Shown here: piece by piece, positions 1 through 2,727 of the stretch
Layout: every line of letters starts with the position of its first letter
How positions within the stretch are numbered: the first letter of the stretch is position 1
DNA from: a virus
Taxonomy: Duplodnaviria; Heunggongvirae; Uroviricota; Caudoviricetes
Strand: one strand, 5' to 3'
IMG/VR virus record: IMGVR_UViG_2648501149_000003
Length of the DNA: 4,271 bases
Made by a program: the position numbers and the translations under genes
The notes under the pieces: model-generated
Databases searched by the model: none
Told to the model about the DNA's origin: nothing
The model's input: the letters and a program-made list of their open reading frames with translations, nothing else

Positions 1-336
1 GCTGATTTGAGTCGCTACAGTGGCACGGTGGTTAACCGTCCGACGTTTTTTGCTTTTGCAAAAGGCGCGGGTGTGATGGGGGAAGCAGGACCTGAAGCCA
101 TTCTGCCACTGCGTCGTGGTGCTGACGGTAAGCTGGGGGTTGTGGCGGATATTGGTGGTTCAGGTATGGCGATGTTTGCCCCGCAGTACAACATCGAGAT
201 CAATAACGATGGCACGAACGGGCAGATAGGTCCGGCTGCCCTGAAGGTGGTTTATGACCTTGGGAAAAAAGCGGCAGCGGACTTTATGCAACAGCAGGCC
301 CGTGATGGTGGTCGGTTAAGTGGAGCATATCGGTAA
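1..336 (+). CDS. H: Tail tape-measure protein H, C-terminal ~111 codons (5'-truncated by window edge)
   Basis: Frame 1 is open from base 1 to TAA at 334-336; the ORF-track TTG at 7 is not the real start. The translation (VVNRPTFFAFAKGAGVMGEAGPEAILPLRRGADGKLGVVADIGG...QQQARDGGRLSGAYR) is recognisable as the C-terminus of lambda-type gpH, and it lies directly upstream of M as in lambda. Stop overlaps the M start (TAATG). Confidence 0.82.
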   Translation, partial: ADLSRYSGTVVNRPTFFAFAKGAGVMGEAGPEAILPLRRGADGKLGVVADIGGSGMAMFAPQYNIEINNDGTNGQIGPAALKVVYDLGKKAAADFMQQQARDGGRLSGAYR

Positions 337-674: not shown

Positions 675-1373
675 ATGCAGGATATTCCACAGGAAACACA
701 TCATGAGACGACACGCCTCACTCAGTTAGCCCAGGTGGTGCTCTGGGAAATCGATCTGACAGAGGTCGGTGGTGAACGTTATTTTTTCTGTAATGAGCAG
801 AACGAAAAAGGTGAGCCGGTTACCTGGCAGGGGCGGCAGTATCAGGCATACCCCATTCAGGGGACGGGATTTGAACTGAACGGCAAGGGCAGTGCTGCCC
901 GTCCGACACTGACGGTTTCTAACCTGCACGGAATGGTCACCGGGATGGCGGAAGACCTGCAGAGTCTGGTCGGCGGAACGGTGGTCAGGCGTAAGGTTTA
1001 CGCCCGTTTTCTGGATGCGGTGAACTTCGTCAACGGAAACAGCGACGCCGATCCGGAGCAGGAGGTGATCAGCCGCTGGCGCATCGAGCAGTGCAGCGAA
1101 CTGAGCGCGGTCAGTGCCTCCTTTGTACTGTCCACACCGACGGAAACGGACGGCGCTGTTTTTCCGGGGCGCATCATGCTGGCCAACACCTGCACCTGGA
1201 CCTATCGCGGTGATGAGTGCGGTTATAACGGTCCGGCTGTCGCGGATGAATATGACCAGCCGACGTCCGATATCACGAAAGATAAATGCAGCAAATGCCT
1301 GAGTGGCTGTAAGTTTCGCAATAACGTCGGCAACTTTGGCGGCTTCCTTTCCATTAACAAACTTTCGCAGTAA
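675..1373 (+). CDS. L: Minor tail protein L (tail tip protein), 232 aa, with C-terminal Cys cluster
   Basis: ATG at 675 is preceded by AGGAGG at 664-669 (5-nt spacer). The 232-aa product (MQDIPQETHHETTRLTQLAQVVLWEIDLTEVGGERYFFCNEQNEKGEPVTWQGRQYQ...) matches lambda gpL in length and sequence, including C-terminal cysteines C173, C182, C205, C208 and C212. Confidence 0.92.
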   Translation: MQDIPQETHHETTRLTQLAQVVLWEIDLTEVGGERYFFCNEQNEKGEPVTWQGRQYQAYPIQGTGFELNGKGSAARPTLTVSNLHGMVTGMAEDLQSLVGGTVVRRKVYARFLDAVNFVNGNSDADPEQEVISRWRIEQCSELSAVSASFVLSTPTETDGAVFPGRIMLANTCTWTYRGDECGYNGPAVADEYDQPTSDITKDKCSKCLSGCKFRNNVGNFGGFLSINKLSQ

Positions 1374-1378
1374 ATCCC

Positions 1379-2122
1379 ATGACACAGACAGAATCAGCGA
1401 TTCTGGCGCACGCCCGGCGATGTGCGCCAGCGGAGTCGTGTGGCTTCGTGGTGAGAACGCCGGAAGGGGAAAGATATTTTCCCTGCGTGAATATCTCCGG
1501 TGAGCCGGAGGCGTATTTCCGGATGTCGCCGGATGACTGGCTGCAGGCAACACTGCACGGTCAGATTGTGGCGCTGGTCCACAGTCACCCCGGTGGTCTG
1601 CCCTGTCTGAGTGAAGCCGACCGGCGGCTGCAGGTGCAGAGTGATTTGCCGTGGTGGCTGGTCTGCCGGGGGGCGATTCACAAGTTCCGCTGTGTGCCGC
1701 ATCTCACCGGGCGGCGCTTTGAGCACGGGGTGACGGACTGTTACACACTGTTCCGGGATGCTTACCATCTGGCGGGAATTGAGATGCCTGATTTTTATCG
1801 TGAGGATGACTGGTGGCGTCACGGTCAGAATCTCTATCTGGATAATCTGGAGGCAACGGGGCTGTATCAGGTTCCGTTGTCAGCGGCGCAGCCGGGCGAT
1901 GTGCTGCTGTGCTGTTTTGGTTCATCGGTGCCGAATCATGCCGCCATTTACTGTGGTGACGGCGAGCTGCTGCACCATATTCCTGAACAACTGAGCAAAC
2001 GAGAGAGGTATACCGACAAATGGCAGCGACGCACACACTCCCTCTGGCGTCACCGGGCATGGCACGCATCTGCCTTTACGGGGATTTGCAACGATTTGGC
2101 CGCCGCATCGACCTTCGTGTGA
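1379..2122 (+). CDS. K: Tail tip assembly protein K: N-terminal MPN/JAMM (JAB) domain plus C-terminal NlpC/P60 (C40) peptidase-like domain, 247 aa. An alternative internal start at 1523 would give a 199-aa form.
   Basis: ORF 1379-2122. JAMM motif H68-x-H70-x7-S78-x2-D81 (HSHPGGLPCLSEAD, nt 1580-1621) with upstream Glu in AESCG (E19, nt 1433-1435). NlpC/P60-like Cys in VTDCYTLF (C121) and His in PNHAAIY (H187). The internal ATG at 1523 has GGAGG at 1507-1511, whereas ATG 1379 has no obvious SD and lies 5 nt after the L stop. Confidence 0.85.
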   Translation: MTQTESAILAHARRCAPAESCGFVVRTPEGERYFPCVNISGEPEAYFRMSPDDWLQATLHGQIVALVHSHPGGLPCLSEADRRLQVQSDLPWWLVCRGAIHKFRCVPHLTGRRFEHGVTDCYTLFRDAYHLAGIEMPDFYREDDWWRHGQNLYLDNLEATGLYQVPLSAAQPGDVLLCCFGSSVPNHAAIYCGDGELLHHIPEQLSKRERYTDKWQRRTHSLWRHRAWHASAFTGICNDLAAASTFV

Positions 2123-2667
2123 AAACGGGGGCCGAAGCCATCCGGGCGCTGGCCACACAGATCCCGGCGTTTCGTCAGAAACTGAACAACGGCTGGTATC
2201 AGGTACGCATTGCCGGGCGTGATGCAGGCGAAAACGAATTATCAGCCCGTCTTAATGAGCCGCTGGAAAATGGTGCCGTGATCCACATCGTGCCGCGTCT
2301 GGCGGGAGCCAAAAGTAGCGGTGTATTTCAGGCGGTGCTGGGGGCGGCGTTGATTGCGACGGCAAGCTGGAACCCGGTGGGCTGGCTGGGTGCCGCGGCT
2401 GTATCGGGCATGTATGCGGCAGGGGCCAGTATGATCCTGGGCGGTGTGGCGCAGATGCTGGCACCGAAAGCCAGGACCCCAACAACAACCAGCACAGATA
2501 ACGGCAAACAGAACACCTATTTCTCATCACTGGATAACATGGTTGCCCAGGGCAATGTTCTGCCTGTTCTGTACGGTGAAATGCGTGTGGGGTCACGGGT
2601 AATTTCGCAGGAAATCAGCACGGCAGACGAAGGGGACGGTGGTCAAATCGTGGTGATTGGTCGCTGA
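2020..2667 (+). CDS. I: Tail tip assembly protein I (ubiquitin-like N-terminal domain; Gly/Ala-rich hydrophobic middle), 215 aa
   Basis: ATG at 2020 with AGAGG at 2004-2008 upstream. It overlaps the 3' end of K by 103 nt in a different frame, as in lambda. The product begins MAATHTLPLASPGMARICLYGDLQRFGRRIDLRVKTGAEAIRALA and ends KQNTYFSSLDNMVAQGNVLPVLYGEMRVGSRVISQEISTADEGDGGQIVVIGR, as in lambda gpI. Confidence 0.88.
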   Translation: MAATHTLPLASPGMARICLYGDLQRFGRRIDLRVKTGAEAIRALATQIPAFRQKLNNGWYQVRIAGRDAGENELSARLNEPLENGAVIHIVPRLAGAKSSGVFQAVLGAALIATASWNPVGWLGAAAVSGMYAAGASMILGGVAQMLAPKARTPTTTSTDNGKQNTYFSSLDNMVAQGNVLPVLYGEMRVGSRVISQEISTADEGDGGQIVVIGR

Positions 2668-2685
2668 TGCAAAATGTTTTATGTG

Positions 2686-2710
2686 AAACCGCCTGCGGGC
2701 GGTTTTGTCG
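2686..2710 (+). terminator. Terminator-like GC-rich hairpin with U-rich tail in the I-J intergenic region (possible partial terminator or mRNA stability element)
   Basis: Inverted repeat AAACCGCC (2686-2693) / GGCGGTTT (2698-2705) around a TGCG loop, followed by TTTTGTCGTTT. It lies 19 nt after the I stop and before the J SD. Confidence 0.35.
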
Positions 2711-2727
2711 TTTATGGAGCGTGAGGA

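What the first reader, a model, noticed from the sequence alone, without database searches (positions are those of the whole stretch)
2020..2667. I (ubiquitin-like) next to K (JAB + NlpC/P60): a candidate ubiquitin-like processing pair in tail tip assembly
The N-terminal ~90 residues of I (MAATHTLPLASPGMARICLYGDLQRFGRRIDLRVKTGAEAIRALATQIPAFRQKLNNGWYQVRIAGRD...AVIHIVPR) have the length and pattern expected of a beta-grasp/ubiquitin-like domain. This is followed by a strongly hydrophobic Gly/Ala-rich segment (SGVFQAVLGAALIATASWNPVGWLGAAAVSGMYAAGASMILGGVAQMLAP, about nt 2311-2470) resembling a glycine-zipper or membrane-inserting element, then a conserved C-terminal tail. Comparative genomics of prokaryotic ubiquitin-like systems (Iyer, Burroughs and Aravind) noted the lambda I-like Ub-fold protein paired with a JAB-containing K-like protein. 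The mechanism is still poorly defined experimentally, so this is the least-understood part of an otherwise classical module.
Basis: partly seen in the sequence, partly recalled or inferred. Interest (0 to 1): 0.45.

Follow-up and report, generated by a model that had tools for sequence, protein, structure and literature searches.

The report
Lambda tail-tip genes K and I
This is the ordinary lambda-type phage tail gene I, whose ubiquitin-like front end is reportedly cut off by the neighbouring K protease so that the rest can plug the tail tip, a pairing predicted in 2006 and since largely worked out.

Summary
Window 2020-2667 is a 215-aa ORF, 82% identical to phage lambda gpI (PDB 8iyk, E=1.5e-105). 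It lies between K (1379-2122, Prok-JAB + NlpC/P60) and J in a canonical H-M-L-K-I-J tail-tip module.

Residues 14-97 match Pfam Lambda_tail_I. In an AlphaFold2 model they fold as a beta-grasp whose structural neighbours are only MoaD, CysO, Urm1, ubiquitin and SUMO. The next ~50 residues are uncharged and Gly/Ala-rich, but the glycine-zipper spacing is no more than composition predicts. K keeps a complete JAMM motif and an NlpC/P60 Cys-His-His triad across eight divergent phages.

Iyer, Burroughs and Aravind proposed in 2006 that the K JAB domain cleaves the ubiquitin-like domain off I. Cryo-EM work from 2023-2025 shows only gpI residues about 101/135-223 in the virion, as a trimeric plug under the tape-measure C-terminus. 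K is absent from the virion. [quoted passage not shown]

My one addition is a predicted cleavage site, G96-A97|K98 (nt 2305-2313). This corresponds to the terminal Gly-Gly of ThiS/MoaD.

The module occurs in 4586 of 5426 complete E. coli genomes. Already known; low interest.

The parts
1..336 (+). 3' end of tape-measure gene H (C-terminal about 111 codons). In lambda this C-terminus forms the coiled coil that sits on the gpI plug.
   Evidence: Annotated as tape measure protein in 96.5%-identical phages. The gpH 818-849 contact with gpI comes from PMC10721106 and PMC12617516.
336..665 (+). Gene M, distal tail protein.
   Evidence: Pfam Phage_min_tail, E=1e-39.
675..1373 (+). Gene L, tail tip hub protein.
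   Evidence: Pfam Phage_tail_L, E=1.6e-99.
1379..2122 (+). Gene K, 247 aa, a non-virion tail-tip assembly peptidase with two domains.
   Evidence: ORF. Pfam Prok-JAB plus NLPC_P60. The 247-aa form is the common one in databases. gpK is absent from virions (PMC10721106).
1385..1672 (+). K JAB/JAMM metalloprotease domain (aa 3-98). Catalytic motif: E19 (nt 1433-1435), H68 (1580-1582), H70 (1586-1588), S78 (1610-1612), D81 (1619-1621).
   Evidence: All five residues are invariant in 8 phages sharing 26-46% identity and in 51 of 52 close relatives. AF2 pLDDT exceeds 90 for most of the domain. The best fold matches are PfJAMM1-SAMP2 (5lda), Rpn11, CSN5 and AMSH. Profile hits to 2kks, 2kcq and 5lda.
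1709..2050 (+). K NlpC/P60 papain-like cysteine peptidase domain (aa 111-224). Triad: C121 (nt 1739-1741), H187 (1937-1939), H199 (1973-1975).
   Evidence: Pfam E=1.1e-12. The triad is invariant across 8 divergent phages. Profile hits to MepS/Spr, LytE and CwlO.
2020..2122 (+). 103-nt K/I overlap. I is read in the -1 frame relative to K. An SD-like GAGAGAGG lies at 2001-2008.
   Evidence: Read directly from the sequence. The overlap is 98% conserved at nucleotide level against lambda.
2020..2667 (+). Gene I, 215 aa plus stop, the ortholog of lambda gpI (tail tip plug / insertion protein).
   Evidence: PDB 8iyk_I, E=1.5e-105, aligned end to end. 82% identity to lambda-type gpI. PHROG 32 'tail assembly protein', E=4e-83.
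2059..2310 (+). I ubiquitin-like beta-grasp domain (aa 14-97), of the ThiS/MoaD type.
   Evidence: Pfam PF06805. AF2 plus Foldseek. Profile hits to ThiS/MoaD-family chains.
2305..2313 (+). Predicted processing site G96-A97|K98, within the family motif P-x-x-x-G-[AS]-K-x-G-G.
   Evidence: Among 89 sequences at or below 50% identity: G96 87/89, A/S97 81/89, K98 67/89, G101 83/89. Profile alignments put G96 at the penultimate residue of ThiS/MoaD/CysO chains: 4n6e 89/90, 2m19 105/106, 2g1e 89/90, 3dwg 92/93. The exact bond is inferred, not shown.
2311..2469 (+). Uncharged Gly/Ala-rich hydrophobic segment (aa 98-150), corresponding to helices H1/H2 of gpI. The conserved core is G135-A-S-M-x-L-G-G-V-x-Q-M-L-x-P149. 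This copy is 8 aa shorter than lambda's.
   Evidence: Composition and hydropathy, family statistics, conservation, indel against lambda. Helices 102-117 and 119-134 appear in a low-confidence part of the model. The H1/H2 description is from PMC11101478.
2470..2664 (+). I C-terminal plug and beta-strand region (aa 151-215), which in lambda threads through gpJ hub domains by beta-augmentation.
   Evidence: Residues 131-214 are about 90% identical to the modelled lambda chains 9e7m Ia/Ic (E about 1e-43). Structural role from PMC10721106 and PMC11101478.
2728..4271 (+). 5' part of gene J (central tail fibre / hub), the docking partner of I.
   Evidence: Pfam FNIII-A_GpJ and Phage-tail_3.

Best explanation
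Window 2020-2667 encodes the ortholog of lambda gpI, made as a three-part precursor.

(a) An N-terminal ThiS/MoaD-like ubiquitin-fold domain (aa 14-97) ends in the conserved small-residue pair G96-A97.
(b) Two uncharged Gly/Ala-rich helices follow (aa about 101-150).
(c) A C-terminal plug and beta-strand region completes the protein (aa 151-215).

Proposed mechanism. During tail-tip assembly, (c) docks onto the J trimer by beta-sheet augmentation. The helices in (b) pack in the lumen around the C-terminal coiled coil of tape measure H. Once I is engaged, the JAMM zinc-protease domain of the upstream protein K (E19, H68, H70, S78, D81) recognises the Ubl and cuts it off at or next to G96-A97|K98. 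This works like a deubiquitinase acting on a linear fusion and serves as an assembly checkpoint. K and the free Ubl are not incorporated. The remaining fragment of about 118 aa stays in the virion as a trimeric plug. When J binds its receptor the hub opens, the plug separates, and the hydrophobic helices leave the lumen, probably inserting into the outer membrane ahead of H and the DNA.

Status of each step. Shown here: the domain identities, the folds, the conserved active sites and the conserved site motif. Taken from the literature on lambda: the virion location of the C-terminal part, the absence of K, and the report of K-dependent cleavage. Inferred: the exact scissile bond, transfer of all of this from lambda to the 82%-identical copy here, the Ubl acting as a solubilising or chaperoning handle for the hydrophobic helices, and membrane insertion.
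For: - Identity with gpI: E=1.5e-105 over the full length, in the conserved gene order M-L-K-I-J.
- Beta-grasp: Pfam match. AF2 plus Foldseek return only Ubl-type folds, top hit MoaD at TM 0.74.
- Site motif: conserved across a family with 5022 cluster representatives at 50% identity and E<=1e-3. G96 aligns to the penultimate Gly of ThiS/MoaD/CysO.
- K active sites: the JAMM motif and the NlpC/P60 triad are invariant across 8 phages sharing 26-46% identity. The closest structure to the K JAB domain is a JAMM enzyme bound to its Ubl substrate (5lda). The best NCBIfam JAB hit is desampylase, though below its cut-off.
- Persistence of the pairing: it survives when K is split into separate JAB and NlpC genes (mEp506) and when other genes intervene (Vibrio phage Her).
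- Literature: Iyer et al. 2006 predicted JAB cleavage at the Ubl C-terminal Gly (PMC1779556). Cryo-EM sees only gpI 135-223 or 101-223. Virion mass spectrometry found no gpK and a single gpI peptide covering 9.87%. That coverage equals the 22-aa C-terminal tryptic peptide, by my arithmetic. The F-pyocin homolog PA0640 is likewise visible only from residue 127. The conference summary reports that gpK cleaves the Ubl of gpI after tail-tip engagement (PMC12908700).
Against: - The only experimental statement of cleavage that I could find is a one-paragraph meeting summary. No paper with data turned up in four searches.
- Absence of the N-terminus from cryo-EM maps could also mean disorder, which is how the structural papers treat it.
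- My stand-in for co-folding gave no confident docking of the Ubl tail. This was an AF2 model of a database K-I fusion, P0417. Residues 308-311, equal to I 95-98, have pLDDT below 50. The tool returns no coordinates or PAE, so this test is inconclusive.
- The full-length I model is poor (mean pLDDT 48.9).
- This copy has S100 where most relatives have G100.
- Nothing here says which of K's two peptidase domains does the cutting.
Confidence: 0.85

Rival explanations
1. The ubiquitin-like domain is not removed. Full-length I sits in the virion with a flexible, invisible N-terminal domain that acts later, during infection. Ge et al. speculated it might be the missing peptidoglycan-cleaving activity.
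For: The cryo-EM papers describe the N-terminus simply as unresolved. PMC11101478 speculates on an enzymatic role. SEQRES of 8iyk lists all 223 residues.
Against: The domain is a ThiS/MoaD-type beta-grasp with no hydrolase features. Three copies of a 10-kDa domain would have to fit in an already filled lumen. Virion mass spectrometry gave one gpI peptide although the N-terminal domain is rich in tryptic sites (my inference). A meeting report states that cleavage occurs.
Confidence: 0.06
2. The K JAB domain is chiefly a counter-defence deubiquitinase. It would strip host Bil-type ubiquitin-like conjugates off the central tail fibre J, and its adjacency to I would be secondary.
For: Hor et al. 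raise exactly this speculation for DUB domains in siphophage tail assembly proteins (bioRxiv 10.1101/2023.09.04.556158). The fold of the K JAB domain is that of isopeptidases such as Rpn11, CSN5 and AMSH.
Against: K is essential for lambda tail assembly in hosts without Bil (established lambda genetics; restated in PMC12617516). The JAB-Ubl gene linkage is conserved across very diverse phages. A cognate Ubl substrate with a conserved G-[AS]-K site is encoded next door. The two roles are not mutually exclusive.
Confidence: 0.05
3. The NlpC/P60 cysteine peptidase domain of K, not the JAB domain, cuts I. The JAB domain would only bind the Ubl as a recognition module.
For: [quoted passage not shown] The Cys-His-His triad is invariant.
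Against: The full JAMM zinc and catalytic motif is also invariant, which argues for JAB activity rather than mere binding. JAMM enzymes are the known Ubl-C-terminal peptidases. The meeting summary attributes the activity to the 'deubiquitinating domain'.
Confidence: 0.05
4. K is a virion-associated or entry-associated peptidoglycan hydrolase, the usual role of NlpC/P60, and I is an unrelated neighbour.
For: NCBI annotates K as a C40 family peptidase. The best profile hits for the C-terminal half are murein endopeptidases MepS, LytE and CwlO.
Against: gpK is not detected in virions by mass spectrometry or cryo-EM. Lambda virions contain no such enzyme according to PMC12617516. This reading does not explain the JAB domain or the linked Ubl.
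Confidence: 0.03

Closest known systems
Bacteriophage lambda gpI (tail tip assembly / insertion / plug protein; PDB 8iyk, 8iyl, 8k35, 8xcg, 9e7m) and gpK
   Same: The gene order, K/I overlap, domain architecture and sequence are the same. I is 82% identical overall, and the overlap region is 98% identical at nucleotide level. The closest whole-window relatives are phages Tritos, PhiR47_1, mEp460 and cdtI at 96.2-96.5% nucleotide identity.
   Different: The hydrophobic H1-H2 segment is 8 residues shorter and substituted. S100 replaces G100. K is an intact 247-aa ORF here, whereas the lambda reference record annotates 199 aa because of a 1-nt difference.
TAPI/TAPK pair of Iyer, Burroughs and Aravind 2006 (Genome Biol 7:R60)
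   Same: This is exactly that system: a ThiS/MoaD-like Ubl with a conserved C-terminal Gly, a Gly-rich linker, a TAPI-C domain, an adjacent JAB + NlpC/P60 protein, and then J.
   Different: There is no architectural difference. [quoted passage not shown]
ThiS / MoaD / CysO sulfur-carrier Ubls and archaeal SAMPs with JAMM desampylases (e.g. PfJAMM1-SAMP2, 5lda)
   Same: They share the beta-grasp fold, a C-terminal small-residue pair aligned to Gly-Gly, and a partner JAMM protease of the same fold.
   Different: The window contains no E1-like adenylating enzyme and shows no sign of conjugation or sulfur chemistry. The Ubl here is a cis-fused N-terminal pro-domain of a structural protein, so the protease would act on a linear peptide bond.
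Phage T5 pb3 plug domain and F-type pyocin tip plug PA0640 / PyoF9 (THIP)
   Same: All form a trimeric plug closing the tail tip lumen beneath the tape-measure C-terminus. Hydrophobic helices are proposed to enter the outer membrane.
   Different: In T5 the plug is an insertion within the hub protein rather than a separate Ubl-tagged gene product.

Membership tests
Lambda gpI / TAPI family (Pfam PF06805 + TAPI-C) | N-terminal domain matches PF06805 above its gathering score | tested here: met
   85.2 bits against a cut-off of 23.8, E=4.2e-24, aa 14-97.
Lambda gpI / TAPI family (Pfam PF06805 + TAPI-C) | Full-length homology to lambda gpI, including the C-terminal region modelled in virions | tested here: met
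   8iyk_I E=1.5e-105 over residues 1-215. 9e7m chains E about 1e-43 over residues 131-214.
Lambda gpI / TAPI family (Pfam PF06805 + TAPI-C) | Conserved Gly at the end of the beta-grasp, followed by a Gly-rich low-complexity hydrophobic linker | tested here: met
   G96 is conserved in 87/89 diverse representatives and G101 in 83/89. The linker is 49% G+A+S and uncharged inside.
Lambda gpI / TAPI family (Pfam PF06805 + TAPI-C) | Gene lies between a JAB/NlpC K-like gene and the J central fibre gene | tested here: met
   K 1379-2122, I 2020-2667, J 2728 onward.
Lambda gpI / TAPI family (Pfam PF06805 + TAPI-C) | C-terminal part forms a trimeric plug in the tail tip lumen; the Ubl is removed by K | not testable with these tools
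   Known only from lambda cryo-EM and a meeting report. My fused-chain AF2 model was inconclusive.
JAMM/MPN+ (JAB) metalloproteases (K N-terminal domain) | E ... H-x-H ... S-x-x-D zinc and catalytic motif | tested here: met
   E19, H68, H70, S78 and D81 are present and invariant in 8 divergent phage K proteins.
JAMM/MPN+ (JAB) metalloproteases (K N-terminal domain) | MPN fold | tested here: met
   AF2 pLDDT exceeds 90 over most of aa 1-100. Foldseek top hits are PfJAMM1, Rpn11, CSN5, AMSH and BRCC36, with probability 1.00. Pfam Prok-JAB scores 50.5 bits against a cut-off of 25.
JAMM/MPN+ (JAB) metalloproteases (K N-terminal domain) | Zinc-dependent peptidase or isopeptidase activity on a Ubl C-terminus | not testable with these tools
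   Needs biochemistry. It is reported for gpK only in a meeting summary.
NlpC/P60 (C40) papain-like peptidases (K C-terminal domain) | Pfam match and a Cys-His-His/polar catalytic triad | tested here: met
   PF00877 scores 48.3 bits against a cut-off of 23. C121, H187 and H199 are invariant. Profile hits to MepS, LytE and CwlO.
ThiS/MoaD sulfur-carrier or conjugatable Ubl systems | Beta-grasp fold | tested here: met
   Foldseek: MoaD 1fm0_D TM 0.74, CysO, Urm1.
ThiS/MoaD sulfur-carrier or conjugatable Ubl systems | Free C-terminal Gly-Gly and a linked E1-like adenylating enzyme | tested here: not met
   G96-A97 is followed by 118 more residues. No E1/ThiF-like ORF exists in the window. I therefore do not file it as a conjugation or sulfur-transfer system, only as a Ubl-fold pro-domain with a JAMM partner.
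Glycine-zipper membrane motifs (GxxxGxxxG) | Periodic Gly or small residues at i, i+4, i+8 beyond compositional expectation | tested here: not met
   GxxxG count is 0 in aa 98-150. Small3 motifs number 7 against a shuffle mean of 5.0 (sd 2.1), and 22% of shuffles reach 7 or more. Lambda gpI behaves the same way.

The most novel reading that the evidence does not exclude
The second peptidase domain of K (NlpC/P60, C121/H187/H199) is as strictly conserved as the JAB domain, yet no substrate has been assigned to it. It could be the long-sought protease that cuts tape measure gpH to gpH* plus gpHC in its glycine-rich C-terminal region, inside the same tail-tip complex where K acts on I. PMC12617516 states that the catalyst of that cleavage is unknown. 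A weaker variant is that the K JAB domain also strips host Bil-type Ubl conjugates from J.
Probability: 0.1. Interest if true: 0.6.

Novelty: already known. Interest (0 to 1): 0.15.

Why it matters
The K/I pair is a clean prokaryotic example of ubiquitin-fold and JAMM logic used as an assembly checkpoint. A removable Ubl handle sits on a hydrophobic plug protein that later helps open the tail and may breach the outer membrane. That matters for phage biology and for the evolutionary prehistory of ubiquitin signalling.

This window adds nothing new to the picture. It is one more copy of a module present in about 85% of complete E. coli genomes. The residual value is practical:
- a predicted scissile site that can be tested (G96-A97|K98);
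- the unassigned role of the NlpC/P60 domain;
- an annotation warning that the classical 199-aa lambda K lacks the N-terminal third of its JAB domain.

Tried and rejected
1. Co-folding K with I. No multimer tool is available. As a stand-in I modelled P0417, a 428-aa database K-I fusion, with a block MSA. The JAB and NlpC domains came out confident. The Ubl tail (residues 308-311) stayed below pLDDT 50, and no coordinates or PAE are returned, so this neither supports nor refutes docking.

2. Full-length I model. Mean pLDDT was 48.9, and only the Ubl part was usable. The MSA was limited to two clades, lambda-like and T1-like, because each search returns only its best 120 hits.

3. Glycine zipper. 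Rejected by a shuffle test.

4. Programmed frameshift joining K to I in the 103-nt overlap. I considered this because several K-I fusion proteins exist in databases. All eight K-I fusions listed and all but two of the nine listed are represented by a single sequence; P0400 and P0461 have two, and each comes from one contig. P0417 joins the frames at a CACACAC run (window 2032-2038), and P0482 changes frame more than once. I read these as assembly or sequencing errors, not biology. PHROG profiles 28576 and 35166 do show that such fused calls recur.

5. Searching for a full paper on gpK cleavage of gpI. Four searches found only the meeting summary.

6. Direct sequence link from the Ubl domain to ThiS/MoaD. 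Profile E-values are weak (0.1-1.7), so I use them only for alignment register. The fold assignment rests.
Full report
**What is in the window.** The 4271-base window is a canonical lambdoid tail-tip module on the + strand. It holds the 3' end of tape-measure gene H (1-336), M (336-665), L (675-1373), K (1379-2122), I (2020-2667) and the 5' part of J (2728 onward). Pfam assigns Phage_min_tail to M, Phage_tail_L to L, Prok-JAB plus NLPC_P60 to K, Lambda_tail_I to I, and FNIII-A_GpJ plus Phage-tail_3 to J. All matches are far above the gathering scores. The DNA is 96.2-96.5% identical over its whole length to phages Tritos, PhiR47_1, mEp460 and cdtI. Related copies occur in 4586 of 5426 complete E. 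coli genomes, with a median of three places per genome. This is one of the commonest prophage modules known.

**Checking the observation.**
- The protein aligns end to end with lambda gpI as deposited in cryo-EM entries 8iyk, 8iyl, 8k35 and 8xcg (E=1.5e-105). It is 82% identical to lambda-type gpI and differs mainly by an 8-residue shorter, substituted hydrophobic stretch.
- An AlphaFold2 model of the full protein is poor overall (mean pLDDT 48.9). It is moderately confident (62-72) for residues 11-95, with the order strand-strand-helix-strand-helix-strand.
- Foldseek against the PDB returns nothing but ubiquitin-superfamily beta-grasps. The top hits are MoaD (1fm0_D, TM 0.74, rmsd 2.6 A over 87 columns), CysO and Urm1, followed by ubiquitin, SUMO and NEDD8.
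- The following segment (aa 98-150, nt 2311-2469) is 49% Gly+Ala+Ser and has charges only at its two ends. In 88 representatives at 50% identity or less, the equivalent stretch has a median of zero charged residues and varies from 41 to 60 residues.
- The segment does not show glycine-zipper periodicity beyond what its composition gives. Its Kyte-Doolittle peaks (about 1.4) are modest.

**The partner, K.**
- The 247-aa ORF carries a complete JAMM motif (E19, H68-S-H70, S78-x-x-D81) and an NlpC/P60 triad (C121, H187, H199).
- All of these residues are invariant in an alignment with K proteins from Burkholderia, Ralstonia, Moraxella, Vibrio, Salmonella, Klebsiella and T1-like Escherichia phages that share only 26-46% identity. 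In 51 closer relatives each is kept in at least 50 of the 52 aligned sequences (H187 itself was checked only).
- In an AF2 model the JAB domain has pLDDT above 90 for most of its length.
- Its best structural matches are Pyrococcus JAMM1 bound to the ubiquitin-like SAMP2 (5lda), followed by Rpn11, CSN5, AMSH and BRCC36.
- A K profile also finds the NlpC/P60 murein endopeptidases MepS, LytE and CwlO with its C-terminal half.

**Family-wide anatomy of I.**
- A profile search of 1.84 billion cluster representatives finds 5022 relatives at E<=1e-3.
- In 88 full-length representatives the most conserved positions cluster at three places:
  - the end of the beta-grasp and what follows it: P92 88/89, G96 87/89, A/S97 81/89, K98 67/89, G101 83/89, G108 89/89;
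  - the second hydrophobic helix: G135 88/89, G141-G142, Q145-M-L, P149;
  - the C-terminal region: F168, N173, G178, P182, Y185-G186, G191.
- A profile of the Ubl domain alone picks up ThiS/MoaD-family chains in the PDB only weakly (E 0.1-1.7). It always does so in the same register, with G96 aligned to the penultimate residue of 4n6e_B, 2m19_A, 2g1e_A and 3dwg_C.
- On that basis G96-A97 corresponds to the terminal Gly-Gly of the sulfur-carrier Ubls. The predicted scissile bond is A97|K98 (nt 2305-2313). This is an inference. Cleavage after G96 or at G100/G101 is not excluded.

**What is already known.**
- Iyer, Burroughs and Aravind (2006) identified the Ubl domain of 'TAPI', its conserved C-terminal glycine, the glycine-rich linker and the TAPI-C domain. 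They also described the flanking TAPK (JAB + NlpC/P60) and TAPJ genes, and proposed that the JAB domain releases the Ubl by cutting at that glycine (PMC1779556).
- Cryo-EM of lambda then showed a gpI trimer (residues 135-223) in the tail-tip lumen. It supports the C-terminal coiled coil of gpH and is tied to gpJ by three beta-augmentations. gpK was not detected by mass spectrometry (PMC10721106).
- A second study resolved gpI from residue 101 in the closed state and from residue 167 after LamB binding. [quoted passage not shown]
- Ur-lambda gave the same picture (PMC12617516). So did F-type pyocins, where the homolog is visible only from residue 127 and the authors raise proteolysis as a possibility.
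- A summary of an October 2025 plenary by A. [quoted passage not shown] I found no full paper.
- The virion mass spectrometry table lists one gpI peptide with 9.87% coverage. That equals 22 of 223 residues, the length of the C-terminal tryptic peptide. This is my arithmetic, and it is consistent with the N-terminal domain being absent.

**Mechanism.** I is a precursor whose Ubl pro-domain is removed by the K JAMM domain once the C-terminal part has docked on J. The cleaved product is the lumen plug. Its hydrophobic helices are released on receptor binding. The steps I could show, and those taken from the literature or inferred, are separated in the Best explanation section. Open points are the exact bond, the purpose of the Ubl (a solubilising handle for the hydrophobic helices, or a pure checkpoint), and the substrate of the equally conserved NlpC/P60 domain. 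Rival readings are:
- an uncleaved, disordered N-terminus;
- an anti-Bil deubiquitinase role for K;
- cleavage by the NlpC/P60 domain;
- K acting as a muralytic entry enzyme.
All four are less well supported, and their probabilities are given in the Rival explanations section.

**What did not work.** A fused-chain AF2 model of a database K-I fusion did not dock the Ubl tail confidently, and the tool gives no coordinates, so co-folding remains untested. The K-I fusion proteins in the databases look like frame errors within the overlap, not evidence for programmed frameshifting.

**Verdict.** Interest is low.

Noticed in passing
window 1379-1525 (difference at about nt 1513); lambda NC_001416 14133-14276: The lambda reference record annotates K as 199 aa, starting MSPEDW. 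That form lacks the first 48 residues of the JAB domain, including the catalytic Glu. Here, and in most database copies, K is 247 aa. The lambda record differs by a single missing base (GAGGC-TATTTCC against GAGGCGTATTTCC) that puts the N-terminal codons out of frame. This is either an error in the reference sequence or a lab-strain frameshift. PhiR47_1 copies the short annotation.
   Followed up: partly
window 2020-2122, especially the CACACAC run at 2032-2038: Databases hold K-I fusion proteins, nearly all represented by a single sequence on one contig (P0417 428 aa, P0008, P0046, P0505, P0482). They join the two frames inside the 103-nt overlap. P0417 does so at the CA repeat. PHROGs 28576 and 35166 are built from such fusions. 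These are most likely assembly errors.
   Followed up: partly
window 2020, 2059 and 2086: The start of I is annotated inconsistently. ATG 2020 (as in lambda) has an SD-like GAGAGAGG 11 nt upstream. Many PGAP records and most distant homologs start at the equivalent of M14 (ATG 2059). PhiR47_1 annotates a TTG at 2086, which would delete beta-strand 1. The 13-residue N-terminal extension MAATHTLPLASPG is specific to the lambda clade.
   Followed up: partly
L002 (phage mEp506) 1458-3097; L004 (Vibrio phage Her) 83-3103: In mEp506 K is split into separate JAB (129 aa) and NlpC/P60 (106 aa) genes, and a YebO-like small gene is inserted before I. All three are annotated as hypothetical. In Vibrio phage Her, K and I are separated by about 1.7 kb that includes two reverse-strand genes and a zinc-ribbon ORF. 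The JAB-Ubl pairing survives both rearrangements.
   Followed up: partly
window 2674-2722 (core stem 2685-2706): The I-J intergenic region folds into a strong hairpin, AAACCGCC-UGCG-GGCGGUUU extended by outer pairs. Its energy is -21 kcal/mol, with z=-2.5 against shuffles, and it is followed by a U-rich stretch just upstream of the J start. The consensus terminator scan did not flag it. Its function (attenuator, RNA stability element, or none) was not examined.
   Followed up: no
window 2260-2620 (I aa 82-201): The C-terminal two-thirds of I also matches positions 157-276 of PHROG 31, 'central tail fiber J' (E=3.8e-07). This agrees with the 2006 report that some prophages fuse I to J.
   Followed up: no
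window 2317-2319 (I S100): This copy has Ser at position 100. Lambda and 45 of 89 diverse relatives have Gly there, giving the K-x-G-G motif, while G101 is kept. Any effect on processing is unknown.
   Followed up: no
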